Assembly: GCA_049971805.1 (NCBI GenBank)
Contig: JBMFKU010000018.1
Span: 1-28,390 of the forward strand
Source: Caldisphaera sp.
GTDB taxonomy: Archaea; Thermoproteota; Thermoprotei_A; Sulfolobales; Acidilobaceae
Direction: 5' to 3'
DNA: 28,390 nt
Made by a program: the position numbers and the translations under genes. A model generated the notes under the pieces. The model saw only the letters and a list, made by a program, of their open reading frames with translations. It was not told the DNA's origin and did not search any database. Positions 1,376 through 28,390 of this stretch are shown piece after piece; within the stretch, counting starts at the first letter, position 1; every line of letters starts with the position of its first letter.

Positions 1376-1807
1376 TGATAAAATAAACGGCAAACCTCTT
1401 CTTTTAAATTGGTAATGCTTTTAATGTTTGTTTTAAGTAAAACATGGGGATTATATGCTTCTCTCAGATCAACTTGCTGTAGATAAGGAGCAGGAGCTGA
1501 TTATTATTACTCCTGCAATGCCTGAAGGAATTTATGAAGTTAATTATGAAAAAATAAGGATAAATGTTGTTCTTCTCCTTAAAAAAGGATGTTGAGGACC
1601 TTATCAAACATTTCATCAAATTTAACGAGAATGAAAGAAGGTAACAGTTCTTTAAGGAAGGTAAAGTAGGTTTTAAAAATACTTACAAGAAATACTATGA
1701 AAAATACAAGGATTTACTTAAAGTTAATGCTCAAACAATAATTCAGAAAAACAATGAGGCTTGGAATTCTTTCTTTTCATTTTTAAAGATGAAGAAGTGA
1801 AATTACC
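1376..1807 (+). pseudogene. tnpB: IS200/IS605 left end plus the 5' part of a tnpB pseudogene
   Basis: Left end is TGAT|AAAATAAACGGCAAACC, nearly the same as at 28225. The ATG at 1455 gives MLLSDQLAVDKEQELIIITPAMPEGIYEVNYEKIRINVVLLL. After a frameshift and stop it continues ERR*QFFKEGKVGFKNTYKKYYEKYKDLLKVNAQTIIQKNNEAWNSFFSFLKMKK, a recognisable crenarchaeal TnpB N-terminus. The RuvC part is absent. Confidence 0.85.
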
Positions 1808-1844
1808 AAAATATATGATATTTGAAATATTATAAATTACGCCT

Positions 1845-4189: not shown

Positions 4190-4475
4190 CTGATCTCTCT
4201 CCCGCATTGATGAGCGAGGGTTCTCGAGATCTTTAGGTTTACTCTCCTTTATGTTGCTCTAATTCCTCCCTATGTGGAAGTAAAGTTACAACTTCTCGCT
4301 CTTATTTAACCTAAGAGAGAAATCTCACCCTCCTTTTTCTTTAATTTGGTAACGAGTAAGGCTTACCTTATATAGTGAAGAATACTGTTGATGGCATTGC
4401 TTATCTAATTATTTTTAAAACAAACATTAAACTTTACCCCGCATTAAAAGAATAGGTTTGCCATTTAATTTACCA
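4190..4475 (-). mobile_element. Complete-ended non-autonomous IS200/IS605 mini-element, family B (~280 bp)
   Basis: Left end is TGGT|AAATTAAATGGCAAACC...GCGGGGTAAAGTTTAATGTTTG. Right end is AACCCTCGCTCATCAATGCGGGAGAGAGATCAG, ending in TCAG at 4190. The internal part is colinear with 28229-28390. No ORF. Confidence 0.8.
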
Positions 4476-10199: not shown

Positions 10200-10248
10200 A
10201 TCAGCTTCCCTCACTTAGAAGGGGCAAGGCTTGTCATTCTTTTTGTCA
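10200..10248 (-). repeat. Minimal ~45-bp single-hairpin IS605-end remnant (REP/PATE-like)
   Basis: Minus strand reads TGAC|AAAAAGAATGACAAGCCTTGCCCCTTCTAAGTGAGGGAAGCTGAT. It shares CAAGCCTTGCCCCTTCTA with the left ends of both family A elements. Confidence 0.7.
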
Positions 10249-16645: not shown

Positions 16646-17458
16646 ATGAGAGAAAATATATTAAAAATAGGATTAACCCAACTCTTATCAAGTAAAAATA
16701 AGGAAGAAAACCTATTAAAAATAGAAAAATTTGTAAAAAATGCAAAAAATCTTGGGGCAGAAATGGTAATTTTTCCCGAGATTTTCATGGTCTATTTTAC
16801 ATCAGATGACAGTTTAGAAAAGAGGGCAAGCGAAGCTGAAAGCTTAGACAGTAACTTTGTAAAAAGTATATTAAAATTATCGAAACAATATAACATCAGT
16901 ATAACCGTTGGTATGTATGAGTCAATAAAAAATAGCTTAAAGGTATTCAACACAACTATAACAACTGATGATAATGGAGAATTGTTAAATGTATATAGAA
17001 AGACACACCTCTATGATGCCTTTAATTTTAAGGAATCCGATTTTTATGAGGCTTCAAATAACCCATATAAGGTTTTCGACTTTAATGGCTTCAAGATCGG
17101 TATAATGGTTTGTTATGAGGTCAGATTTCCGGAAATTGCCAGAACTTTAGCTTTAAAAGGTGCTGATGTAATTTTAGTTCCGAGCGCATGGGTCAGAGGT
17201 TATAATAAAGAAGAACATTGGATAACTATGATTAAAGCCAGGGCCTTAGAAAATACTGTATATATTGCTACATCAAACCAAATAGGAAATATCTACACAG
17301 GAATAACAAGCTTTGTTGATCCCCTTGGAATTTTATTGCACAGAATGAATGAAAACGAAGGAATTATTGTTGGAGAGGTAAATAAAGGAAGGATTGAAGA
17401 GGCAAGAAAAGTCCTACCGTTGCTCTCTCAAAGAAGACCAAGCCTATATGAATTATAG
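16646..17458 (+). CDS. Carbon-nitrogen hydrolase (nitrilase superfamily, Nit1/YbeM-like)
   Basis: Catalytic Glu-Lys-Cys triad in IFPE, YRKTHLYDAF and VCYEVRFPE, plus ARALEN. Confidence 0.93.
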   Translation: MRENILKIGLTQLLSSKNKEENLLKIEKFVKNAKNLGAEMVIFPEIFMVYFTSDDSLEKRASEAESLDSNFVKSILKLSKQYNISITVGMYESIKNSLKVFNTTITTDDNGELLNVYRKTHLYDAFNFKESDFYEASNNPYKVFDFNGFKIGIMVCYEVRFPEIARTLALKGADVILVPSAWVRGYNKEEHWITMIKARALENTVYIATSNQIGNIYTGITSFVDPLGILLHRMNENEGIIVGEVNKGRIEEARKVLPLLSQRRPSLYEL

Positions 17459-17479
17459 AACATAAATCTGCTTTTTATC

Positions 17480-17814
17480 TGACAAACGAAGGGCAAGCCT
17501 TGCCCCTTCTAGGGACGGGGTAAAGTTTTTAAATCCTGAATGTTTTAAAGTATTGCAGAATAAAAACGTGTCCCCATATAGTATGCTAGATAAGGGCTCT
17601 ACATATTCCTGAGTCCCAGGGAGACGGGAGTGGAGGGCAACTCCTGTTGAGGAAGGGTAATGGGCTGAAGAGCCGCCGATGGTCTACCGTTAAACGAATG
17701 GAGCGGGGTGGCTTTTGGCCACTAGCTATGAAGTAATGAAAATGAAGGCGGTAAACCATAAACCTATGATCTCTCTAAGGAAACCCTTGCCCTTCAGGAC
17801 GGGGAGGAGGTCAG
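17480..17814 (+). mobile_element. Non-autonomous IS200/IS605 mini-element, family A copy 1 (331 bp after TGAC)
   Basis: TGAC is followed by a left-end hairpin (CCTTGCCCCTTCTAGGGACGGGG), a TATA-like TTTTTAAA and a tnpB C-terminal scrap (TCPH...ALHIPESQG). It ends with a right-end hairpin, CCCTTGCCCTTCAGGACGGGGAGGAGGTCAG. A second copy lies inverted at 27161-27522. Confidence 0.92.
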
Positions 17815-17832
17815 CTCCACTTATCTTTTTCC
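17610..17832 (+). ncRNA. Putative TnpB omegaRNA (scaffold plus 3' flank-derived guide CTCCACTTATCTTTTTCC)
   Basis: GC-rich structured region ending at the element's TCAG right end, where TnpB omegaRNAs are encoded. Bases 17620-17765 are identical to 27211-27356. Boundaries are approximate. Confidence 0.7.
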
Positions 17833-17978
17833 TTCTTTATTCAGCACCAGAATAAAGGTTTATCTCAAATCTCGGTTAAGCTTGCTCCAAAGGTGAGGTT
17901 TGTTGATACTTCTACTATCTTAACTCTTGTTAAAAATAATTAAAATTTTGGCCTATTAATGATATTTGAAAAATTTGT

Positions 17979-19279
17979 TCATAGCAATGGCTGTGCCACT
18001 CTATCTGAGGGTGAAATCGTTGAGAATATAGCAGCTACTATTGCAGCTATTATAGCTATCAGGAAGTTTGCCATAACTGGGCTGTGGATAGCTAAACCTA
18101 AGGCTGTAACAATGTATGGGGCAAATGAGGATATGGCAACTCCAAGATTTACTACAAATGCTATGTAGGAGTACCTGACCCTTGTGCTTATGTTCTCAGC
18201 AAGAAATGCTGGTAATATTGCATATTGCCAACCAAAGAGGAGTCCTTCAATTATACCTCCTATAGCTACTAAGAAAAATTTCCCACTATAAAGCATTATG
18301 ACTATTGGATAAGTAACTGCTGCAGTAATAGCATATACAATTGCAAGATACAACTTCCTTGATTTCAGTATATCACTCGTATATCCAAAGATTGGTGATG
18401 TAATAAGCCAGAATAGATTTGTTAGCAGAACAGCCATCTCTATTTGGAAGTTTGACAAATGAGTATATAAAGCAAGGAAGTCTGGCATAAAAGATACAAC
18501 GCCATAGTACATAAAGGCTTCTCCAACTATCACCATAGTTGAGATTATTACCAACTTCCAATGTCTTCTGAACACAGTAACTATAGGTATCTTCTCAGGA
18601 TTATCCTTCACCTTAGTTGCCCACTCTATGCTTTCTGATACACTCCACCTAACAACAAGAGCTATTACTAATGGTATAGCACCAAACCAAAACATCACTC
18701 TCCAGCCTAAAGTGCTGAAAGACGCGGGAGTAGGTGCAATTAAATGAGCAAGCGCAGATGCCGCTACTGCAAACATAAGTCCGAGGGGTGCCCCACCCTG
18801 TTGTATTCCTCCAAATAAACCTCTTCTGTGCTCTGGTGAGTTCTCAACAACAAAGGTCATCCCTCCTCCCCATTCACCTGCAAGGAATATGCCTTGGACT
18901 ATTCTTAGTAGCACTATGAGGACTGATGCTAAAATCCCTATCTGACTATAGGTAGGTAAAAAACCAATCAGTATAGTTGCTATACCCATACCAAGGAGTG
19001 ATAAGAACCAAATATGCTTTCTTCCTATCTTGTCTCCGTAATGACCAAATATTATCGCACCTATAGGTCTTGCGAAATACCCTAGAACTAGTGTTAAATA
19101 AAATGTCAAAAGACTTGCAAAATAGCTTGTTGATGGAAAAAAAGCTCCGCCATAATTGTACCTGCATAAAGATAAACAACAAGATCAAAAAGCTCAAAGC
19201 CCCAACCTAAGTTTGCTGATATCGCAAGCTTAAGCGCTTCACGATAAGACTTAAATTGACCAGCATTTGATCCCACCAT
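17979..19279 (-). pseudogene. MFS transporter (metabolite:H+ symporter family), split by a 1-nt frameshift at the T7 run (19137-19143)
   Basis: RBS GAGGTG precedes the ATG at 19279, giving ...ANLGWGFELFDLVVY...ELFF. The shifted frame continues PSTSYFASLLTFYLTLVLGYFARPIGAIIFGHYGDKIGRK, then LRIVQGIFLAGEWGG. One extra nucleotide gives 433 aa. Confidence 0.9.
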
Positions 19280-19453
19280 ATTACACCTCGCAATAAATCT
19301 GCCTAAAGCAATATCTTGGCTTATTTATAAAATTATCTGTACACAAATACATACAAATTTGCTTTATACTTATTTATACGGTATTCCCTTACAGGAATGT
19401 AATTATAAAAACTTAAAATTTAAGAGATAAATTTTATTTTTAGGTAGATTGTT

Positions 19454-20269
19454 TTGAGAAGATCTCAACTTTATGTACCTGGAAATAATGAAAAGATGAT
19501 AAGGAAGAGTACAGAGCTTGAGGCAGATAGCGTTGTTCTTGACTTGGAGGACTCAGTGCCCATGAATCAAAAAGGAACAAGCAGGGAACTTATTAGAAGA
19601 TTAGTTAATGAGCTTGATTGGGGCAAAAAAGAGCTTGCTATAAGAATAAATTCTTACAAAACATTAGAAGGCCTTAGAGATTTGGCCATTTTGAAGGATA
19701 TTGATAAGGTAAGGCTTGTGCTTGTGCCCAAGGCTGAGGAAGATATGAGCTTCATATATAATGCCTTAGAGATTGCTATAGAGCCTATTGTAGAGACAGC
19801 CAAGGGATTATTGAAGATTGAGGAGCTTGCTTCTTCTAAGGGTGTTGAAGCTATAACATGGGGGCCAGCCGATTTGGCCCTTAGTGTTGGAGGAAATGCA
19901 AATGTATATAAAGACAATCAATTTATAAGGACCTTAGTTGTTGTTACAGCAAAGGCTTATGGTCTTGATGCAATAGATTCGGTGTTTTTTGACCTAAATA
20001 ACCTGAAAGAGTTTGAGCAAGAGTGTAGGAAGGCAAAGGAATTAGGCTTTGTTGGTAAGCAAGTCATACATCCATCACAGATAGTGGTTGCCAACTCCAT
20101 CTTTTCCCCTACTCGTAATGATATAGAAAGAGCCAAGAAAATAGTTCAAGCCTACGAAGAGGCTAAAAGGCTTGGTAAAGGAGCAATAAGGTTTGAAGGC
20201 CAGATGATTGACTATGTTCATTATGCTACCGCCAAGAAACTTCTGGAGCAAATAGGTGAAAAACCTTGA
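19454..20269 (+). CDS. CitE-family CoA-ester lyase (citryl/malyl/citramalyl-CoA lyase-like)
   Basis: Motifs RRSQLYVPG, LDLEDSV, IVETAKG, GPADL and GFVGKQVIHPSQ. Confidence 0.93.
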   Translation: MRRSQLYVPGNNEKMIRKSTELEADSVVLDLEDSVPMNQKGTSRELIRRLVNELDWGKKELAIRINSYKTLEGLRDLAILKDIDKVRLVLVPKAEEDMSFIYNALEIAIEPIVETAKGLLKIEELASSKGVEAITWGPADLALSVGGNANVYKDNQFIRTLVVVTAKAYGLDAIDSVFFDLNNLKEFEQECRKAKELGFVGKQVIHPSQIVVANSIFSPTRNDIERAKKIVQAYEEAKRLGKGAIRFEGQMIDYVHYATAKKLLEQIGEKP

Positions 20270-21426
20270 ATGGTCCTCTCAGCAACGTAAAGGTTCTTGA
20301 TTTTGGGTTAGCAGTAGCTGGACCATATGCCTCTATGCTTCTGGCAGAAATGGGTGCTGAAGTAATAAAAATTGAACCTCCTGAAGGTGATGAAGCAAGG
20401 GGAGCTGCTCCTGTCATTAATGGAATTAGTGCCATATTTGCCTCTTCGAACAAAAACAAGAAAAGCCTTGGGATTGATCTCAAAAATCCATCGTCGAGAA
20501 ATGTTGTTGAAAAGCTTTTTAAATGGACTAACGTTGTCTTGGAGAACTTTAGACCTGGAGTTAGGGAAAGACTTGGGATTAGTCCAGAGGATGCCTTTAA
20601 GGTAAACAGGGATCTTGTTTATGTTAGCATAAAGGGTTTCAGACCTGATAGCAAGTATGGAGACTTACCTGCATATGATATGATAGTACAAAGTATGAGC
20701 GGTATAATGCTTTCCATGGGTACACAACAAGATCCTCCAATAAGGGTTCCATTTGCTCTCTTTGACATATTCACGGGAAACCTTGCTGCGCTTGAGATAC
20801 TAACAGGTCTTATCTCAAGTAAGAGGCCATACTATGCAGAGGCATATCTTTTTGATACGGGGATCTATTCAATGAACTATTTGATTCAATCTTTTCTTCT
20901 CACAGGATCAGAGCCCAAAAGGCTTGGCGGAATACATTTTTCATATGCACCTCATCAGCCATACATGGATTCTGATGGTAAGTGGTTCACTGTAGCCATT
21001 GTAAGCGATAGACAATGGTTGAAGCTTTGCGATGCTCTTGGTCTTGAAGATCTTAAAAATGACAAAGAGCTCTTAACAAATATTGGAAGAGTAGCCAACA
21101 GAGATAGGATAAACGCAAGGCTTGTTAAATTGTTTTCATCAAAGTCCAGGGATTATTGGATTGACATACTTAAGAAGGCTGGTATTCCGGTTGCTCCTGT
21201 GTACAGCATTAAGGAACTATTCTCTGATGACTATTCTAATAACTTAATTTATAATTGCGAAAACCTGAAGCTTTTATCCTTCCCAGGTAAAATCAACGGA
21301 GAGAGACCTAGACCAATAAGACCCCCACCAATAAGGCAGGGTTCCGATTCTGATGAAGTTCTTAAAGAGCTTGGCTTTAATGATTCAGAAATCTCAAGAC
21401 TTAAGAAGGAAGGAGTCATCAAATAA
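20266..21426 (+). CDS. CaiB/BaiF family III CoA-transferase
   Basis: Motifs AGPYASMLLAEMGAEVIKIEPPEGD, ENFRPG, AYDMIVQSMSG and the catalytic Asp in ALFDIFTG. 4-bp overlap with the lyase gene. Confidence 0.94.
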   Translation: MNGPLSNVKVLDFGLAVAGPYASMLLAEMGAEVIKIEPPEGDEARGAAPVINGISAIFASSNKNKKSLGIDLKNPSSRNVVEKLFKWTNVVLENFRPGVRERLGISPEDAFKVNRDLVYVSIKGFRPDSKYGDLPAYDMIVQSMSGIMLSMGTQQDPPIRVPFALFDIFTGNLAALEILTGLISSKRPYYAEAYLFDTGIYSMNYLIQSFLLTGSEPKRLGGIHFSYAPHQPYMDSDGKWFTVAIVSDRQWLKLCDALGLEDLKNDKELLTNIGRVANRDRINARLVKLFSSKSRDYWIDILKKAGIPVAPVYSIKELFSDDYSNNLIYNCENLKLLSFPGKINGERPRPIRPPPIRQGSDSDEVLKELGFNDSEISRLKKEGVIK

Positions 21427-21470
21427 CAAATTGATTAGCTTAACGTTTCCTTAATATTTTATGAATTAAT

Positions 21471-22238
21471 TTAATCGGTACGGCACACTACATTACTTCC
21501 TACATGACCTTCGAGGTAGTAATCTGGATATTCCTGCTTTAATAAATTCCTTATCGTGTCACCACTGCAATGTATGGGTGATATTTTCTTTACACCTAGA
21601 GATATGAGCTTTTCTATAACATCCTTGCATTTATTTCTCGAGGCCCACGCCATGTGGAAGCCCCCTATAACCATGTATGGTCTTTCTTCCAGATCTCTTG
21701 TTGCTTTCTCTACTATGCTAACAATTCCTGGGTGGCTACACCCACCAAAAACAAATAGACCTAGACCTTTAACATTTATTGCCAAGGATTGTTCAGACGG
21801 AGGACCGTTAAGCCAGCCTATTATAGCGACCCCTTCAGATAACTTTATGGTTTTATCAACCTCTACTACTTTAATTCCATAGCTTCTAGCTATCCATGAG
21901 GTCCCGATAGGAACATACACTGTAATATCGGGCCTATTCTTTGCCAGATAACCAAGACCACCTGTGTGATCACCATGATCGTGTGATATCACAACAAAAT
22001 CTATATCATTAATATTAATCTTAAGTTTTCTCATGTTTCTTTCTAAGACTCCTTTATCAGGGCCTGTGTCAAACAAAAAATTTGAGCTAGGAGTTTCAAT
22101 AAAAATACTAAGACCCCATGCTGTTTCCAATTCTGAATCCATATTATTATCAACAACTACAACTAACTTGCATTGTTCTACAGACCCCAATTTAACAACT
22201 CTTCTTGAAGAAAGCATTGATGAATTCATTTGCTTCAC
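21471..22238 (-). CDS. MBL-fold metallo-hydrolase (COG1237-like)
   Basis: Motifs WGLSIFIE, LFDTG, SHDHGDHTGG, GCSHPG, GGFH and HCSG. Confidence 0.9.
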   Translation of the reverse strand: MKQMNSSMLSSRRVVKLGSVEQCKLVVVVDNNMDSELETAWGLSIFIETPSSNFLFDTGPDKGVLERNMRKLKININDIDFVVISHDHGDHTGGLGYLAKNRPDITVYVPIGTSWIARSYGIKVVEVDKTIKLSEGVAIIGWLNGPPSEQSLAINVKGLGLFVFGGCSHPGIVSIVEKATRDLEERPYMVIGGFHMAWASRNKCKDVIEKLISLGVKKISPIHCSGDTIRNLLKQEYPDYYLEGHVGSNVVCRTD

Positions 22239-22618
22239 CAGATAAGAAACGATAAAGGCAAAGATATTAAACTTAATTTTAGCCTGAGAATATTTTAATA
22301 AAATATATTAAATAAATTACAAAAAATAGCGATAAAGTTTTGTTTTATTTGGTCTTTTATATATAAAATTCCTTAATTTCATCTAATAGTTTAAGAAAAT
22401 TTTATTTTAGACACAATAATACACCAAAAACTATAAACATGCTTTTTGGCTTCAAACCCAATAGCTTTAAAATATTTTATATAGCTTAAGGAAAAAAGCT
22501 CTATTTACCATATTTTCCTCCTTATTAAAAGAGTTATAAAAATATGAGAATAAAGCATTAATAGAAAGCCATTAATTTATTTTAATTTAATCAGATAATT
22601 ATAAATAGGGGTAATCAA

Positions 22619-23593
22619 GTGTCTAAATACACATTCGGCCCTGTAATATCAAGAAGGCTTGGAAAGAGCCTAGGGGTAAATAACATACCTTATAAGACTT
22701 GTACATACTCATGCACCTACTGCCAACTTGGAAGGACTGAGGATTTCACCATAGAACGAAGGTCCTTTTATGACTGGAGGGAAATTGTTAGTGATGTAGT
22801 AAAAACGGTTAATGATATAAATAAAGAGGTAGATTATATAACTTTTGTACCAGACGGAGAACCCCTCCTTGATATAAATATTGGGCTTGAAATAGATGGA
22901 ATAAAGAAGGAAGAAAGTATTCCAGTTGCAGTTATTACTAACTCTTCTTTATTATACCTAAAAGAATGTAGGGAAGATCTTTTCGAAGCAAATCTTGTGT
23001 CTGTGAAAGTTGATTCTGTTGAAGAAAAATCGTGGAGAAAAATAAACAGACCATATCCCAAACTAAGTTTTGATAAAGTTCTTGAAGGAATAGAGGAATT
23101 TTCGAAGCAGTTCAAGGGAAAACTTATCACAGAAACAATGCTTATTGAAGGCTCGAATACAGATAGGGAAGATATTGATAGTGTGGCTTTATTTATTAAA
23201 AAGCTGAATCCTTATAAAGCATATATATCCATTCCCATAAGACCTCCAGCAGAGGCTTTTGTTAAACCTCCAGAACCAGTAAAAATTGTAGAAGCCCATG
23301 AGATCTTTAATGAAAGGCTAGGAGAAGGAAAAGTTGAGCTATTAAATCTGCCAGAACCTCCACCACTATCTGTTCATGGGGATCCCGCAACATGGCTCCT
23401 TTCAGTAACATCTGTGCACCCTCAAAGAATAGAATATGCTATCAATTCTCTAAAAAGTGTTGTAGAAAAACCTGAAGAGCTTATAGCAAAGTTAGAGTCT
23501 GAAGGCCTTATAAGGATTGTTGAGTATTCTGGCTCAAAGTTTGTAGTGAGATGGTTTGAAAAGGAGAAGAAAGCAAAAAGAGGAACTAAATGA
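22619..23593 (+). CDS. Radical SAM protein (COG0731-like Fe-S oxidoreductase)
   Basis: Motifs FGPVISRRLGKSLGVN, CxxxCxxC (CTYSCTYC), DGEP and VITNSSL. Confidence 0.92.
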   Translation: MSKYTFGPVISRRLGKSLGVNNIPYKTCTYSCTYCQLGRTEDFTIERRSFYDWREIVSDVVKTVNDINKEVDYITFVPDGEPLLDINIGLEIDGIKKEESIPVAVITNSSLLYLKECREDLFEANLVSVKVDSVEEKSWRKINRPYPKLSFDKVLEGIEEFSKQFKGKLITETMLIEGSNTDREDIDSVALFIKKLNPYKAYISIPIRPPAEAFVKPPEPVKIVEAHEIFNERLGEGKVELLNLPEPPPLSVHGDPATWLLSVTSVHPQRIEYAINSLKSVVEKPEELIAKLESEGLIRIVEYSGSKFVVRWFEKEKKAKRGTK

Positions 23594-24020
23594 AGTTCTA
23601 ATTTATAAATCCAATGTTTCAAATATTGAAGATGTTAAATCTTTCTATAATTTTGTTAAAGATAAATTTAAAGAAATATATGTTTTAATCTACAATGCTG
23701 GTATTCAAAAGGAAATATACCCTAAGAAAGATTGAGAATGTAAAATATGCTAAGGAAGAAATAAATATAAATTTTAAAGGAGGATTTATATAACTCTTTA
23801 CATGATTCCTTTGCTGTTAGAAAAAGAAAGTTCAGCTATTGTAAATGTAACATCTGGCCTTGGATTTATACCATCTAAGAGATTCCCAGTTTATTCAGCA
23901 ACAAAAGCCGCTATGCATGTTTTTACATTAACTCCTAGAGAGCAATTAAAGGATAAGATAAAGGTATTTGAAGTCATACCATCCGCTGTTTATGATACTT
24001 ATCTAAAAGCTATTTTATAG
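23592..24020 (+). pseudogene. Short-chain dehydrogenase (DltE-like) pseudogene lacking its N-terminus
   Basis: Upstream frame EVLIYKSNVSNIEDVK...VLIYNAGIQ, then stops and frameshifts, then IVNVTSGLGFIP...VYSATKAAMH (YxxxK motif). No Gly-rich Rossmann motif. Confidence 0.8.
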
Positions 24021-24138
24021 AAAAAGCGATTTCAATATTTCAACAAAAAAATTATGGAAGCATTTAGAAATATGAACAGATTTTAATTCTAAAATATATA
24101 TTTAAACTCTAAAGAATATAATTAAAAAAGGTGAAACC

Positions 24139-26682
24139 ATGTCTAAGAAATCCTATATATTAATAGCAGTATTTCTTTTCATATTAATATTCGTTTCATA
24201 TTTAGGTCAAAGCTTTTCAATATTTAGCCCATCAAAAAATAGTATATGGCCTTATTCTTATACCTCTAAATTAAAAAACCAAACTATATATTTGCAAGGC
24301 CTAAAGAGCCCTGTTAAGATTATAATTGATAATTCAGGCGTTGCCCATATAATTGCTAATAATACCTATGATGCATTTTATGCCGAAGGTTATTATACTG
24401 CCTACATGAGGCTATTCCAACTAGAGTTATTCGGCTTAACAGGTGCAGGCAATTTAAGTTCATGGTTTGGCAACTCAACTTTAAGCACAGACCTATATTC
24501 TTATTATGTTGGATTTCCTCAAAACGCTAACTTTTCTTTAAATTATGTTAAGCAAAATTATCCAGTAATATATTCCTATTTGCAGGCCTATTCAGATGGA
24601 GTTAATGCTTACATAGCTAGAGCTGAGAGCTTGCATGAATTACCCCCAATATTCTATCTATTAAACATAAGACCCTACAACTTTACCCCATTTTATTCCA
24701 TTGCATGGGGAGAAGTTATGGCATGGGGATTAGCAAGCGGTTTTTGTGAAGAATCAGAGCTTTCCATAATTTATACACATTTGGGATATAATCTAACCCA
24801 AGAACTCTTCCCATATTACCCATATTACAGTAACGGCTCTTTAACTGCCATGCCTGGTAATGGAACTGTTAATGGTTTAAACCTTCAGAGCTTTAATATA
24901 AGTCCCTCTTATTTTTGGTCGCTAAACTTTTATGATAGCTTTGCAAATGGTTTATACAATGAAACATTGTATAAAGCGATGCCATTAATTGTTTCATCTC
25001 TTAATAAAATTTGCTCCGATCCACTAGGCTTTGTAGATTTAGGAAGCAACGAATGGGAAGTAACTGGTAATCATAGCTCTACGGGTTTTCCAATGATGGC
25101 AAACGATCCACACTTAACCTTATATGATCCTTCGTTATGGTTACCATTACAAATTGTTTCACCAGGTTTAAATGTTACTGGTTATGAGCTTGTGGGAGAG
25201 CCAGGAGTTTTAATAGGTCATACAGAAAACACTGCATGGGGCTTAACTACACCTTTAGGGGCATCTACCAACGCTTACCTTGAAATCGTTAACATGGATA
25301 ACAAATCCTATTTATATAATGGAGAATGGTTACCATTAAGGCAATATAATTTTACTTTATTAAACAAGAAATATACAATTTATTATACAAACAATGGACC
25401 ATTGATATCTTATAATAAAACTCTAAACATGGGAATGAGCCTCTATTGGGTTAACCAGTATTATCCATTCTTAACCCTTGTATCGGAGTTCCTATTAGAT
25501 AACTCGACAAATTTTGCCCAGCTATTAAATGCTGCAAGATATTGGAATGAGCCGGCTCAAAACTTGGCTATGGTTTCTAAAAATGAAACTGGTTTTATTA
25601 CTGCAGGACTTTATCCCTTAATAAGAATTAATTTACCAAACAATGAAAGCATTGAAGTTGTTGGTGCTAGAACAATTTTAAATGGATCAATACCAAACTA
25701 CGAGCCTATAGGCTATATTCCATTTAATTACTTACCACAATCAATAAATCCTGCAAGAGGTTTTGCATTTGCTCCAAATCAACCAACAGCTTATATAGAC
25801 TATCCTTATCCTTTTGTTGGAGGCTATTGGGTTTCCGATGGAAGAGCTTTAACGATTTATAGATACTTAAATTCACATAAAGATATAACAATACAAGAAA
25901 TGGAGTCTTTACAAGGAAATGTGACAGATTCTTGGGCTTCTATATTAACTCCGGTAATGGTTTCCTGTTTAGAGAACCAAAGCTACTCAAATAATTTTGA
26001 AAAAGGGGTTTCCGCATTATCAATCTGGAACTATACATTTTATCAAAACGAAGTTGCCCCAACCATTTATACATATACATTATTAAACATGATAAACAAT
26101 GTGATAAACCCAATAATTAATCAGCATGGTTTAAACCAATACAAGAATTTGTTAACAGGAACTGTTGGATTTTATGGAACTGATACTTTAATTACAAGCG
26201 ACATTGCTTATCTCGCGACCCATAATCCTTCTTCTCCTCTATTTAATGGTAGCTTTTGCAAAGTAGTAAATATATCTTATAATGAAGCTATAAACTATTT
26301 ATCAGAAAAGCTTGGTAATATGTCTAATTGGGAATGGGGTAAAGTCCATGAATTGCTTTTAGTAAATCCTGCCGGTATAACGTCACTTAATTATGGTCCT
26401 ATACCTATTTGGGGTGATGGTTTTACTCCATCCGCAGCTTATTTTAACTTTAATGGCACCATTTACATGCCATTAATTGTTAGCGAAGGACCTAGCTTAA
26501 GGGTAGTAAACTCTCCTGGAACAAATCAATTTTATTCCGTATTCCCCGGAGGACCTAGTGAAAATCCTGCAAGTCCTTGGTTTGAGACGCAATTGAATTC
26601 CTGGATGAACTTCAATTATTATCCATTTTCACCTATTGTAAGCATTAATGCAACATGGTATCTAATACCAAGAGGTGGGTGA
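24139..26682 (+). CDS. Membrane-anchored penicillin acylase family (S45) protein, paralog 2
   Basis: N-terminal TM helix, motifs DNSGVAHI and RLFQLE, nucleophile LGSNEWEVTG (Ser303), ANDPHL, WEWGKVH and PGGPSENP. Confidence 0.94.
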   Translation: MSKKSYILIAVFLFILIFVSYLGQSFSIFSPSKNSIWPYSYTSKLKNQTIYLQGLKSPVKIIIDNSGVAHIIANNTYDAFYAEGYYTAYMRLFQLELFGLTGAGNLSSWFGNSTLSTDLYSYYVGFPQNANFSLNYVKQNYPVIYSYLQAYSDGVNAYIARAESLHELPPIFYLLNIRPYNFTPFYSIAWGEVMAWGLASGFCEESELSIIYTHLGYNLTQELFPYYPYYSNGSLTAMPGNGTVNGLNLQSFNISPSYFWSLNFYDSFANGLYNETLYKAMPLIVSSLNKICSDPLGFVDLGSNEWEVTGNHSSTGFPMMANDPHLTLYDPSLWLPLQIVSPGLNVTGYELVGEPGVLIGHTENTAWGLTTPLGASTNAYLEIVNMDNKSYLYNGEWLPLRQYNFTLLNKKYTIYYTNNGPLISYNKTLNMGMSLYWVNQYYPFLTLVSEFLLDNSTNFAQLLNAARYWNEPAQNLAMVSKNETGFITAGLYPLIRINLPNNESIEVVGARTILNGSIPNYEPIGYIPFNYLPQSINPARGFAFAPNQPTAYIDYPYPFVGGYWVSDGRALTIYRYLNSHKDITIQEMESLQGNVTDSWASILTPVMVSCLENQSYSNNFEKGVSALSIWNYTFYQNEVAPTIYTYTLLNMINNVINPIINQHGLNQYKNLLTGTVGFYGTDTLITSDIAYLATHNPSSPLFNGSFCKVVNISYNEAINYLSEKLGNMSNWEWGKVHELLLVNPAGITSLNYGPIPIWGDGFTPSAAYFNFNGTIYMPLIVSEGPSLRVVNSPGTNQFYSVFPGGPSENPASPWFETQLNSWMNFNYYPFSPIVSINATWYLIPRGG

Positions 26683-26683
26683 A

Positions 26684-27040
26684 ATGAGCAAAGTTAGTAA
26701 TATAATAATAGTAGTAGTCTCTGTAGCCTTAACTTTAATCCTATCATATTTTATCCCTTATGTATGGATTGGTATAATACCAGGTGTCATTATAGGATTT
26801 ATGAGAAGAAGATCGATAAGGCTTATTTCAGGGTTTCTGATAGGATTTTTAGGCTCATTAATAATGTACTTTGTATATCCAATCAATTATTTTGTCCCAT
26901 TAGCTAAAAGTGTTGGAGAATTAGCTGGAATATCTTGGTTAATATTGATATTAGCATTTCCCTTATTATTTGGTCTAGTAGAACTATCAGCTGCAGGAAT
27001 TGTAGGAGAAATTATTGCTATAACAAGAAAAAATAAATAA
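26684..27040 (+). CDS. Small Gly-rich membrane protein (about 4 TM) coupled to acylase 2
   Basis: The ATG lies 1 nt after the acylase stop, with a GGTG RBS. 118 aa, same layout as 13368..13724 (AGAVAGF vs VGELAGI). Confidence 0.85.
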   Translation: MSKVSNIIIVVVSVALTLILSYFIPYVWIGIIPGVIIGFMRRRSIRLISGFLIGFLGSLIMYFVYPINYFVPLAKSVGELAGISWLILILAFPLLFGLVELSAAGIVGEIIAITRKNK

Positions 27041-27142
27041 TTTTTTATCTTTTAGTAATTCAATATTAAAAAGGATTTTGTATATATTACTAGTATTTTT
27101 TAATTTTTCCCATAATAATTTTTATCATAAACGCTGAAGAGC

Positions 27143-27365
27143 GATGTTTATTTTAATTCTCTGACCTCCTCCCCGTCCTGAAGGGCGAGGGTTTTCCCAG
27201 GGCGGTTCACAGGTTTATGGTTTACCGCCTTCATTTTCATTACTTCATAGCTAGTGGCCAAAAGCCACCCCGCTCCATTCGTTTAACGGTAGACCATCGG
27301 CGGCTCTTCAGCCCATTACCCTTCCTCAACAGGAGTTGCCCTCCACTCCCGTCTCCTAGGGAGTC
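27143..27365 (-). ncRNA. Putative TnpB omegaRNA (scaffold plus guide AGAATTAAAATAAACATC)
   Basis: Same scaffold as 17610-17814, with a different 3' flank. Confidence 0.7.
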
Positions 27366-27522
27366 GGAGGGATTCGTATCTGTGTGGGGATACTCAACAC
27401 ATTTAATACGCCCGTTATGGGCTTCCCCACACCTTATTGTTTTCACAATACCTTAACACATTTTAGAATTTAAAATTTTACCCTGCCCTTAGAAGGGGCA
27501 AGGCTTGTTGTTCGTATTGTCA
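27161..27522 (-). mobile_element. Non-autonomous IS200/IS605 mini-element, family A copy 2 (358 bp after TGAC)
   Basis: TGAC at 27522-27519 is followed by a left hairpin, a TnpB Zn-ribbon scrap (CGEAHNGRIK...PHT) and the scaffold. Right end is CCCTCGCCCTTCAGGACGGGGAGGAGGTCAG at 27161. Confidence 0.92.
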
Positions 27523-27572
27523 GACCTCACACGGCTCATCATAAATTTCAGACCGAAATCGGTCATCATCCA
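27518..27572 (-). ncRNA. Archaeal C/D-box methylation guide sRNA
   Basis: Minus strand reads box C ATGATGA (27569-27563), guide CCGATTTCGGT, box D' CTGA, AATTT, box C' ATGATGA, guide GCCGTGTGAGGT, box D CTGA (27523-27520). All four boxes are consensus, with 11- and 12-nt spacers. Confidence 0.9.
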
Positions 27573-27580
27573 CAGCTAAT

Positions 27581-28224: not shown

Positions 28225-28390
28225 TGATAAAATAAACGACAAATCTTGTCATTTTAAGGTGAGGTAAAGTTTAAAGTTTGTTCTAAAAATAATTAGATAT
28301 GAATAGCTATCAAGGGTATTCTTCACTATATGAGGTAGGCCTCTACTCGTTGCCAAATTAAAGAAAAAGGAGGGCGAGATTTCTCTCTTA
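28225..28390 (+). mobile_element. Family B IS200/IS605 mini-element, cut by the window end
   Basis: TGAT|AAAATAAACGACAAATC...GGTAAAGTTTAAAGTTTGTTCTAAAAATAATTAGATA...GTATTCTTCACTATA...CCAAATTAAAGAAAAAGGAGGGCGAGATTTCTCTCTTA is colinear with the reverse complement of 4312-4471. Confidence 0.85.

What the first reader, a model, noticed from the sequence alone, without database searches (positions are those of the whole stretch)
17480..27522. Two protein-less tnpB mini-elements keep a 146-bp identical omegaRNA scaffold but have different guides
Seen: 17620-17765 and the reverse complement of 27211-27356 match at 146/146 positions. The left ends and the retained tnpB scraps differ (TCPH..ALHIPES vs CGEAHNGRIK..PHT), pointing to different internal deletions. 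Both keep the TGAC site, left hairpin, a TATA-like box, right hairpin and TCAG end. Known: TnpB omegaRNA is encoded at the IS200/IS605 right end, and its guide comes from the flanking DNA. Inference: these are mobile guide-RNA-only cassettes serving a TnpB (and TnpA) in trans, a dispersed guide repertoire. The scaffold would be maintained by selection or gene conversion.
Basis: partly seen in the sequence, partly recalled or inferred. Interest (0 to 1): 0.8.

Follow-up and report, generated by a model that had tools for sequence, protein, structure and literature searches.

The report
Protein-less IS605 mini-elements keeping guide-RNA scaffold
Two short mobile-element remnants in a hot-spring archaeon have lost the tnpB nuclease gene but kept its guide-RNA scaffold, a kind of element already described elsewhere, and their identical 146-base stretch most likely comes from one copy overwriting the other.

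Summary
In detail: window 17620-17765 equals the reverse complement of 27211-27356 at 146/146 positions. The rest of the two elements is only about 82% alike.

Both are protein-less derivatives of an IS200/IS605-family element (LE-[tnpA]-tnpB-omegaRNA-RE). A third copy lies on contig C28. Full-length relatives with the same ends, the same TGAC target and the same scaffold exist in other archaea. The scaffold has a conserved fold supported by covariation. It gives significant but sub-threshold matches to Rfam HgcC and sot0042.

The identical block is best read as a gene-conversion patch. E2 and a sister-species copy agree at 98% in both core and right end. E1 shares only the core.

This assembly holds no intact tnpB and no tnpA, so service "in trans" is not shown here. 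The guides match only their own flanks.

That PATE-like elements encode omegaRNAs needing TnpB in trans is already in print (Meers et al. preprint). Verdict: a real feature, a new member of a known kind, of modest interest.

The parts
17480..17483 (+). TGAC target/transposon-adjacent motif 5' of E1
   Evidence: TGAC directly 5' of the left end in 10 of 15 complete mini-elements and 7 of 9 full-length relatives
17484..17814 (+). Mini-element E1 (331 nt, no ORF of 80 aa or more)
   Evidence: Aligned from left end to right end with E2, E3 and 12 copies from relatives; one search lists no ORF of 80 aa or more inside it
17489..17534 (+). E1 left-end imperfect palindrome followed by a TATA-like box (TTTTTAAAT, 17526-17534)
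   Evidence: Conserved in minis and in full-length elements; promoter role is inferred
17566..17619 (+). E1 tnpB scrap and deletion junction (piece around the second Cys pair, then the start of the scaffold)
   Evidence: Same architecture in L073, L082 and L083; matches the 32-nt internal direct repeat of the full-length element L050
17603..17814 (+). E1 omegaRNA scaffold (212 nt), 35 of 38 modelled base pairs intact
   Evidence: nhmmer 230.6 bits; covariation model; per-copy pair count; HgcC 29.6 bits, E 5e-5 over 17705-17825
17620..17765 (+). 146-bp block identical to E2
   Evidence: 146/146; 143/146 to the G002:C10 copy
17784..17814 (+). E1 right-end hairpin (UUCA loop) and terminal GGAGGAGGTCAG
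   Evidence: 33 of 42 aligned scaffolds end in TCAG; the same end is found in tnpA+tnpB elements L138-L140
17815..17834 (+). E1 flank that would be the guide
   Evidence: Alignment breaks exactly after TCAG; no TGAC-flanked match to the flank from 17816 on elsewhere in the genome (that script query began one base late); the 17815-17834 20-mer has 0 viral hits
27161..27518 (-). Mini-element E2 (358 nt, no ORF of 80 aa or more)
27519..27522 (-). TGAC motif 5' of E2, overlapping the D box of a C/D box sRNA
27382..27432 (-). E2 hairpin derived from the tnpB zinc-finger coding segment
   Evidence: The outer stem closes in the minimum-energy fold of 12 of 15 minis that carry it, with compensatory variants in both the outer and the inner stem; it is present in the E2 fold
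27161..27373 (-). E2 omegaRNA scaffold (213 nt), 36 of 38 modelled pairs intact
   Evidence: nhmmer 234.3 bits; HgcC 34.0 bits, E 3.4e-6
27211..27356 (-). 146-bp block identical to E1
27141..27160 (-). E2 flank that would be the guide
   Evidence: only non-TGAC matches in the genome; one viral 20-mer hit without TGAC
10214..10248 (-). Solo left-end remnant of the same family (TGAC plus left-end hairpin only)

Best explanation
E1 and E2 are non-autonomous, protein-less (PATE-like) derivatives of one IS200/IS605-family insertion sequence. A third copy, E3, lies on contig C28. The full form of the parent element is left end, optional Y1 tnpA, tnpB, omegaRNA scaffold overlapping the tnpB 3' end, and right end.

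Internal deletions removed the protein-coding part. They spared the left end with its TATA-like box, the RNA modules and the right end. The RNA modules are a scaffold of about 212 nt and, in E2 and E3, a further 5' hairpin made from the zinc-finger coding segment.

By the established TnpB model, each copy would be transcribed into an omegaRNA. Its 3' 16-20 nt are copied from the DNA just past the TCAG end. That RNA would direct TnpB to TGAC plus that flank, which is the empty donor site. A Y1 TnpA would excise and insert the element at TGAC. All of this step is inferred.

Both proteins must come in trans. This assembly contains neither intact, so here the copies are most likely orphaned, unless the genes are unassembled. 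The elements are not a working guide repertoire.

The 146-bp identity is a recent gene-conversion patch that copied the core of the E2 lineage into E1.
For: Anatomy. Three-way and 15-way alignments show shared ends, TGAC 5' and TCAG 3', with flanks diverging exactly there. A full-length relative (G035:C15, locus L050) has the same left end, a 442-aa ORF with OrfB_IS605 and TNB domains, the same scaffold overlapping its last ~65 codons, and the same right end. An autonomous form with Y1 tnpA (136 aa, 145 bits) plus tnpB and the same scaffold (233 bits to my profile) is in L119.

RNA. On 42 scaffolds, a 38-pair structure is paired in 90.6% of cells against 36-53% when partners are slid. It has 82 double-sided changes against 13-39 slid, and 0 of 500 shuffles reach it. 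E1, E2 and E3 keep 35, 36 and 37 of 38 pairs. Rfam E-values are 5e-5 to 1.7e-7 for HgcC and 4.6e-7 for sot0042, which spans the whole scaffold of E3.

Mini form is the rule. Of 34 near-complete scaffolds in the own genome and held loci, 1 had a tnpB ORF, 16 had a left end 111-437 nt upstream, and 17 had none found, several of these at contig edges. Three deletion architectures recur in several genomes.

Conversion. E2 vs the G002:C10 copy: core 143/146, right end 49/50. E1 vs the same copy: core 143/146, right end 42/50. E1 vs other E1-type copies: core 66-73%.

Orphan status. PF01797 gave 0 hits, PF01385 gave 0 hits and PF07282 gave 2 fragments at contig edges. tblastn with the cognate TnpB finds at best residues 270-376 in two different frames on C21.
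Against: The genome is a 66-contig assembly, 96.6% complete. Several contigs begin or end inside copies of this family (C13, C14, C30, C34, C66), so an intact tnpB or tnpA could be unassembled.

No transcript evidence was obtainable. No RNA run is listed for this sequence.

E1's single-sequence fold is no better than shuffles (z -0.69), whereas E2's is (z -3.6).

The mosaic is not clean. The 27 nt just 5' of the block are shared by E1 and the G002 copy but not by E2. The donor may therefore have been another E2-lineage copy, or E2 was itself patched.

In run X1 the short contigs that tile the block have depths of 20-111 against about 75 for the flanks. That fits neither one nor two copies cleanly.

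E1, E2 and E3 have nearly intact scaffolds although no nuclease is found. This is also what a current function would predict.
Confidence: 0.75

Rival explanations
1. One reading: the copies are working guide-RNA cassettes, currently served by a TnpB (and mobilised by a TnpA) encoded elsewhere in the same cell, and together they form a dispersed guide set.
For: Scaffolds of E1, E2 and E3 are as intact as those next to tnpB genes: 35-37 of 38 pairs against 32-37. Two separate deletions spared the RNA modules. Contigs break inside family copies, so genes may be missing. Congeners carry intact elements, for example G001:C63 with tnpA plus a 441-aa tnpB and the same right end, and G003 with 37 TNB matches. 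The idea is stated for bacterial PATEs by Meers et al..
Against: No intact tnpB of any family and no tnpA were found in 1.52 Mb. The closest congener with a 95% identical copy (G002) also shows no cognate frame over 248 aa; its one longer frame, 451 aa, is a sub-threshold hit. The guides match only their own flanks. No RNA data are available.
Confidence: 0.2
2. The scaffold RNAs have been taken over by the host as stable small RNAs (HgcC-like) that work without TnpB. That use keeps them intact.
For: HgcC RNAs are expressed in other archaea, and in T. kodakarensis two of the five confirmed are not in transposase genes (passage read, PMC4247193). Overexpression of a sotRNA and of a PATE-derived RNA improved growth of H. 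salinarum (abstract and passages, PMC4615843). Here intact scaffolds persist without a nuclease gene.
Against: Many copies in congeners are decaying, with 20-32 of 38 pairs. Copies sit at different, non-orthologous sites in each species. Covariation can be inherited from active master copies. No expression data exist for this organism.
Confidence: 0.1
3. The 146-bp identity is an artefact of assembly or polishing that homogenised two similar repeats.
For: This is a metagenome-type assembly with many repeat-induced contig breaks. In run X1 the depths of contigs tiling the block are uneven.
Against: In run X2, from a different study, one contig joins E1's unique left flank to 17709 and another joins 17742 to the unique right flank, both with 0 differences. 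In X1 the graph branches at the block's borders, and a loose end reads the E2 continuation. A sister-species copy is 143/146 identical, so this core sequence is real.
Confidence: 0.05
4. Purifying selection on every position of the scaffold keeps the two blocks identical.
For: The block is the structured core of the RNA.
Against: The same block is 79% identical in E3 and 65-87% in other copies, with many compensated and loop changes. The sister-species copy already differs at 3 positions.
Confidence: 0.02

Closest known systems
PATE-like minimal IS200/IS605 elements of Geobacillus stearothermophilus (Meers et al., bioRxiv 10.1101/2023.03.14.532601; passages read)
   Same: No protein genes and conserved left and right ends. 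[quoted passage not shown]
   Different: The host here is an archaeon from acidic hot springs. The TGAC motif and the scaffold differ. Here three recurrent deletion architectures are documented, and no TnpB or TnpA is found in the same assembly. Their Extended Data figure on PATEs could not be seen.
HgcC RNA family, Rfam RF00062 (found in Methanocaldococcus jannaschii, by recall; T. kodakarensis data in PMC4247193, passage read)
   Same: GC-rich RNA in an AT-rich genome. The model's 3' half has the same hairpin with a UUCA-type loop and the same GGAGGAGGUCAG end, and it runs a few bases into the flank. Some HgcC copies lie outside transposase genes.
   Different: Scores are below Rfam's gathering cut-off: 29.6, 34.0 and 41.8 against 50. 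HgcC covers only about the last 120 nt of the 212-nt scaffold.
sotRNAs of IS1341-type tnpB genes and the PATE-derived RNA VNG_R0052 of Halobacterium salinarum (PMC4615843; abstract and passages read); Rfam sot0042 RF02656
   Same: RNAs from the 3' end of tnpB, with the right-end tetraloop motif. One is a PATE-derived intergenic RNA. sot0042 aligns over the whole scaffold of E3 (model 1-174 of 174, E 4.6e-7).
   Different: The score is far below the cut-off, 36 against 88. VNG_R0052 is described as a fusion of left and right ends, not as a full scaffold.
ISDra2 / IS605 TnpB-omegaRNA (reRNA) system (Karvelis et al. 2021, PMC8612924, search listing only; mechanism recalled)
   Same: Scaffold at the tnpB 3' end and right end, guide from the flank, and a target motif 5' of the left end.
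   Different: The TnpB here is about 440 aa with a long C-terminal tail that overlaps the scaffold. The motif is TGAC rather than TTGAT (recalled). No biochemical data exist for this family.

Membership tests
IS200/IS605 family, non-autonomous PATE-type element | Subterminal imperfect palindromes at both ends, no terminal inverted repeats | tested here: met
   Left-end and right-end hairpins are conserved in 15 minis and in the full-length elements
IS200/IS605 family, non-autonomous PATE-type element | Insertion 3' of a short conserved motif without target-site duplication | tested here: met
   TGAC is 5' of the left end in 10 of 15 minis and 7 of 9 full-length copies. Flanks on the two sides are unrelated. 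No orthologous empty site could be found for E1 or E2.
IS200/IS605 family, non-autonomous PATE-type element | No protein-coding gene inside | tested here: met
   No ORF of 80 aa or more inside either element. The tnpB scraps lack starts, and the 3' tail frame is broken by a 1-nt deletion.
IS200/IS605 family, non-autonomous PATE-type element | A cognate autonomous element (Y1 TnpA) with the same ends exists | tested here: met
   L119 has Y1_Tnp at 145 bits plus tnpB plus the same left end, scaffold and right end. L139 in a congener has the same right end. None is in the window's own genome.
TnpB omegaRNA | Encoded at the 3' end of tnpB, overlapping the ORF end and the right end | tested here: met
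   In L050 the scaffold (1700-1916) overlaps the ORF end (stop at 1899) and finishes at the right end
TnpB omegaRNA | Conserved secondary structure | tested here: met
   90.6% paired, 16 of 38 pairs with double-sided changes, 0 of 500 shuffles. Helix 1 has 6 of 7 covarying pairs.
TnpB omegaRNA | Transcribed, bound by TnpB, guides cleavage of motif plus flank | not testable with these tools
   No RNA run is listed and no biochemistry is possible
Rfam HgcC (RF00062) | Bit score at or above the gathering cut-off (50) | tested here: not met
   29.6 (E1), 34.0 (E2), 41.8 (E3); E-values 5e-5 to 1.7e-7; no match at gathering threshold
Rfam sot0042 (RF02656) | Bit score at or above the gathering cut-off (88) | tested here: not met
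   36 bits for E3, E 4.6e-7, full model length; not listed for E1 or E2

The most novel reading that the evidence does not exclude
Guide-RNA-only elements persist and stay foldable in a lineage that has lost both the nuclease and the transposase, and they are homogenised by gene conversion. They would then be resident RNA genes. Either the host has taken them over, or they stand ready to arm any incoming TnpB. At least one of them (E3, contig C28) carries a guide that matches TGAC-flanked sites in copies of a different insertion-sequence family at 14 of 16 positions. That would mean RNA-guided homing into, or conflict with, a rival element.
Probability: 0.1. Interest if true: 0.65.

Novelty: new member of a known kind. 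Interest (0 to 1): 0.3.

Why it matters
The finding gives a clean archaeal example of how tnpB insertion sequences shrink to RNA-only elements. Two independent deletions remove the protein but spare every RNA module, which argues that the RNA is what such mini-elements need in order to persist.

It also ties the long-unexplained HgcC-type RNAs of thermophilic archaea to omegaRNA scaffolds and right ends of this transposon family.

It further shows that copies exchange sequence by gene conversion. The concept itself is already published, so the value lies in annotation and in material for testing trans-complementation, not in a new principle.

Tried and rejected
1. Rfam at gathering thresholds over the whole window gave no match. 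Only the E-value mode found HgcC and sot0042.

2. RNAalifold on the 42-scaffold alignment gave a weak consensus (-19.2 kcal/mol) that missed helices visible by eye. I replaced it with a hand-drawn structure and tested that against controls. A structure derived from these sequences tends to beat slid controls for that reason alone.

3. Expression: the look-up of sequencing runs listed no RNA holder, only two DNA holders kept as contigs. This says nothing about expression.

4. Empty sites: searches of five and then three congeners with the flanks of E1 and E2 found no orthologous unoccupied site. The neighbouring genes are rearranged between species.

5. Guides against viruses: the E1 20-mer had 0 hits. 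The E2 20-mer had 1 hit in an unrelated contig without TGAC upstream, taken as chance.

6. The idea that E1 arose by deletion between a 32-nt direct repeat: the repeat is present in only 1 of the 9 full-length elements that could be tested (L050; a tenth had no left end found). That element could equally be a mini/full-length recombinant, so the direction is left open.

7. E3's right flank as an orthologous site in G035 contigs: rejected. The left flanks differ and the element copies are only 75-79% alike, while the flank is 92-95% alike.

9. Supplements of the cited papers were not opened. These include the PATE figure of Meers et al. and Fig. S8 and File S4 of Gomes-Filho et al., which may already show similar elements.
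Full report
**Observation.** Window 17620-17765 and the reverse complement of 27211-27356 are identical at 146 of 146 positions. The exact match stops on both sides. The repeat finder reports the wider pair as 176 nt at 93%, plus separate matches for the left ends (70 nt, 80%) and the right-end tips (34 nt, 97%). Outside the block the two elements agree at only about 82%: left end 64 of 78 aligned columns, right end 41 of 51. Their middle parts have different lengths. A run of 146 matches at that divergence has a chance of the order of 1e-13 (my arithmetic). Both elements are preceded by TGAC and end in TCAG, after which the sequences are unrelated.

**What the elements are.** The window's genome (1.52 Mb, 66 contigs, 96.6% complete) holds a third complete copy, E3, on contig C28. 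It also holds about nine partial or degenerate copies, several cut by contig ends. A search of 60 related genomes with core plus right end found matches in 19 of 61 genomes (G000 included) and in all 6 other members of the genus. Full-length scaffold matches came from two genera; the more distant hits were only the last ~35 nt.

One relative (G035:C15, an Acidilobus sp. record by its title) carries the full-length form. It has the same left end, a 442-aa ORF with OrfB_IS605 and Cas12f1-like TNB domains, the scaffold overlapping the last ~65 codons, and the same right end. Homologues of this TnpB (54-85% identity) occur in records titled Nitrososphaeria, Methanomethylicota, Marsarchaeota, Caldivirga, Vulcanisaeta, Thermocladium, Archaeoglobales and Thermogymnomonas. 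One of them (L119) has a Y1 transposase gene (145 bits) in front of tnpB, with the same left end, TGAC and scaffold. The family is therefore an IS605-type insertion sequence, and E1, E2 and E3 are its protein-less derivatives.

**The mini form dominates.** I examined 34 near-complete scaffolds in the own genome and the loci held at that point. Only 1 had a tnpB ORF. 16 had a left end 111-437 nt upstream. For 17 no left end was found, several of them at contig edges.

Fifteen complete minis of 308-451 nt fall into three architectures:
- E1-type: left end, a short scrap around the second Cys pair of the zinc finger, then the scaffold.
- E2-type (E2, E3): left end, the whole zinc-finger-coding segment, then the scaffold, with about 45 nt encoding the last RuvC motif removed.
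- A third type with an extra ~70 nt.

The zinc-finger segment forms a hairpin. Its outer and inner stems show compensated variants between types, and the outer stem closes in the minimum-energy fold of 12 of 15 minis. Two separate deletions that spare this hairpin argue that the RNA modules were what was retained. TGAC precedes the left end in 10 of 15 minis and 7 of 9 full-length elements. 33 of 42 scaffolds end in TCAG.

**The scaffold is a structured RNA.** I used an alignment of 42 distinct scaffolds (43 were listed; one was dropped for a coordinate error) and a hand-drawn structure of 38 pairs.
- It is paired in 90.6% of cells, against 36-53% when the 3' partners are slid by 1-3 columns.
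- It has 82 cells with changes on both sides, against 13-39 slid.
- No shuffle out of 500 reaches the paired percentage, the double-change cells or the covariation score.
- Helix 1 has 6 of 7 covarying pairs.

The structure was drawn from these sequences, which favours it against slid controls, and the sequences are related. E1, E2 and E3 keep 35, 36 and 37 of 38 pairs. That is as good as scaffolds next to tnpB genes (32-37), while several copies in congeners are decaying at 20-32.

Rfam gives no match at gathering thresholds. In E-value mode the last ~120 nt plus a few flank bases match HgcC (29.6, 34.0 and 41.8 bits against a cut-off of 50; E 5e-5 to 1.7e-7). The whole scaffold of E3 matches sot0042 (36 bits against 88; E 4.6e-7). 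Single-sequence folding is significant for E2 (z -3.6) but not for E1 (z -0.69).

**The identical block.** E2 and a copy in a sister species (G002:C10) agree at 143/146 in the core and 49/50 in the right end, so they belong to one lineage. E1 agrees with that copy at 143/146 in the core but only 42/50 in the right end. E1 has a different 5' architecture, and other E1-type copies have cores only 66-73% like E1's. E1 therefore carries the core of the E2 lineage between foreign ends, the signature of a conversion tract of at least 146 bp.

The picture is not perfectly clean. The 27 nt 5' of the block are shared by E1 and the G002 copy but not by E2. The donor may have been another E2-lineage copy, or E2 was itself altered. 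Selection cannot explain zero differences, because the same block varies to 65-87% in other copies.

An assembly artefact is unlikely. In an independent run (X2) one contig joins E1's unique left flank to 17709 and another joins 17742 to the right flank, both with 0 differences. In run X1 the flank contigs end at 17617 and start at 17758, and a loose end at 17769 reads E2's continuation. Depths of the tiling contigs in X1 (20-111 against ~75 in the flanks) are uneven and not interpretable.

**Are the proteins present in trans?** In this assembly there is no Y1 transposase hit and no OrfB_IS605 hit. There are only two TNB fragments, both at contig edges. tblastn with the cognate TnpB finds at best residues 270-376 on C21, in two frames, abutting an unrelated AMP-ligase-type ORF 300 nt from the contig end.

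Among congeners, G002 and G006 also lack an intact cognate gene. G001 and G003 have tnpA, and G005 has a fragment. G001:C63 carries a tnpA-tnpB element with the same right-end terminus but TTAC instead of TGAC. Trans-mobilisation is therefore plausible historically but not shown for this genome. Repeats are often unassembled, so absence is not proven.

**Guides.** The E1 and E2 flanks have no TGAC-flanked match elsewhere in the genome. For E1 the script query began at 17816, one base past the guide's first base. In the viral contig collection the E1 20-mer has 0 hits and the E2 20-mer has 1 hit without TGAC, in an unrelated contig. Nothing supports a repertoire aimed at foreign DNA. By the established model each guide simply matches its own empty donor site.

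**Comparison with what is known.** Gomes-Filho et al. (PMC4615843; abstract and passages) described RNAs from the 3' ends of IS1341-type tnpB genes and a transcribed PATE-derived RNA, and linked their tetraloop to HgcC. Jäger et al. (PMC4247193; one passage) found that two of the five confirmed HgcC RNAs of T. kodakarensis are not in transposase genes. Meers et al. (bioRxiv 10.1101/2023.03.14.532601; passages) state that PATEs often encode omegaRNAs that need TnpB in trans. A related preprint shows a PATE with IStron ends (10.1101/2023.11.20.567912; figure legend). The original HgcC paper is recalled, not read. My literature searches found no paper that names HgcC an omegaRNA outright. The library is partial and supplements were closed, so I claim no priority.

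**Verdict.** It goes beyond the evidence on current trans service and on a guide repertoire. This is a new member of a known kind, useful for annotation and as test material, and of modest interest.

Noticed in passing
window 27519-27573 (- strand): A C/D box sRNA-like gene with C, D', C' and D boxes. It matches sR5 at 29.3 bits (cut-off 40), E 6.2e-5, and seven other archaeal C/D families, all below cut-off. It abuts E2's left end, and its D box CUGA plus the next C forms E2's TGAC motif. Read-through from the sRNA gene would enter E2.
   Followed up: partly
window 4300-4460 and 28252-28390 (inverted); about 35 further matches on 27 contigs of G000: An abundant repeat family of about 160 bp, 72-92% alike between copies, unrelated to the tnpB minis. 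The window ends inside one copy.
   Followed up: partly
G000:C28:10780-10880 (right flank of E3); G000:C4:5794-5879, C6:56024-56105, C5:14188-14269, C22:2-84: E3's right end abuts the 3' ~90 nt of a second repeat family. In G003 that family lies just after the TNB domain of another tnpB. Intact copies carry TGAC exactly at that junction, so E3's first 16 flank bases match three TGAC/TGAT-flanked paralogous sites with 2 mismatches. E3's left flank is a penicillin-amidase paralogue, not this repeat.
   Followed up: partly
window 16646-27040 vs G005:C1:1481672-1485999: In the one closed congener genome the penicillin amidase gene and the C-N hydrolase gene are adjacent. Here they are 6.7 kb apart, with E1 next to one and E2 next to the other. 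The genes between them (MFS transporter, HpcH aldolase, CoA-transferase III, MBL hydrolase, radical SAM) have almost no DNA-level match in three congeners and lie partly in a stretch of higher G+C, 37-43% against about 30%. The elements sit in a rearranged region.
   Followed up: partly
window 1620-1815; G000:C6:4517-4711; G000:C12:23778-24723: Scraps of a second, degenerate tnpB-type element. The window piece matches TnpB residues 45-97 at 53% and has a 99% identical copy on C6.
   Followed up: no
G000:C21:21189-21588: The only sizeable cognate tnpB fragment. It is frameshifted and stops in the RuvC-III region, where the sequence continues as the middle of an AMP-dependent synthetase ORF. This is either a real deletion or a chimeric join near a contig end.
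   Followed up: partly
L014 (G002:C10) 1335-1988: Two scaffolds in tandem, the second starting 66 nt after the first one's TCAG and lacking its own left end. This is apparently a mini-element inserted into another mini-element. Ten bases at the junction are masked.
   Followed up: no
L050 (G035:C15) 492-523 and 1697-1728: The full-length element has a 32-nt direct repeat (29 of 32 identical) of the scaffold's 5' start inside its left-end region. Deletion between the repeats would give the E1 architecture. It was not seen in the other 8 full-length elements that could be tested.
   Followed up: partly
G003 (same genus), many contigs: 37 TNB-domain matches in one 1.5-Mb genome. Several different tnpB families there share the same last ~40 nt of right end (hairpin plus the GGAGGAGGTCAG terminus) but have different scaffolds.
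   Followed up: no
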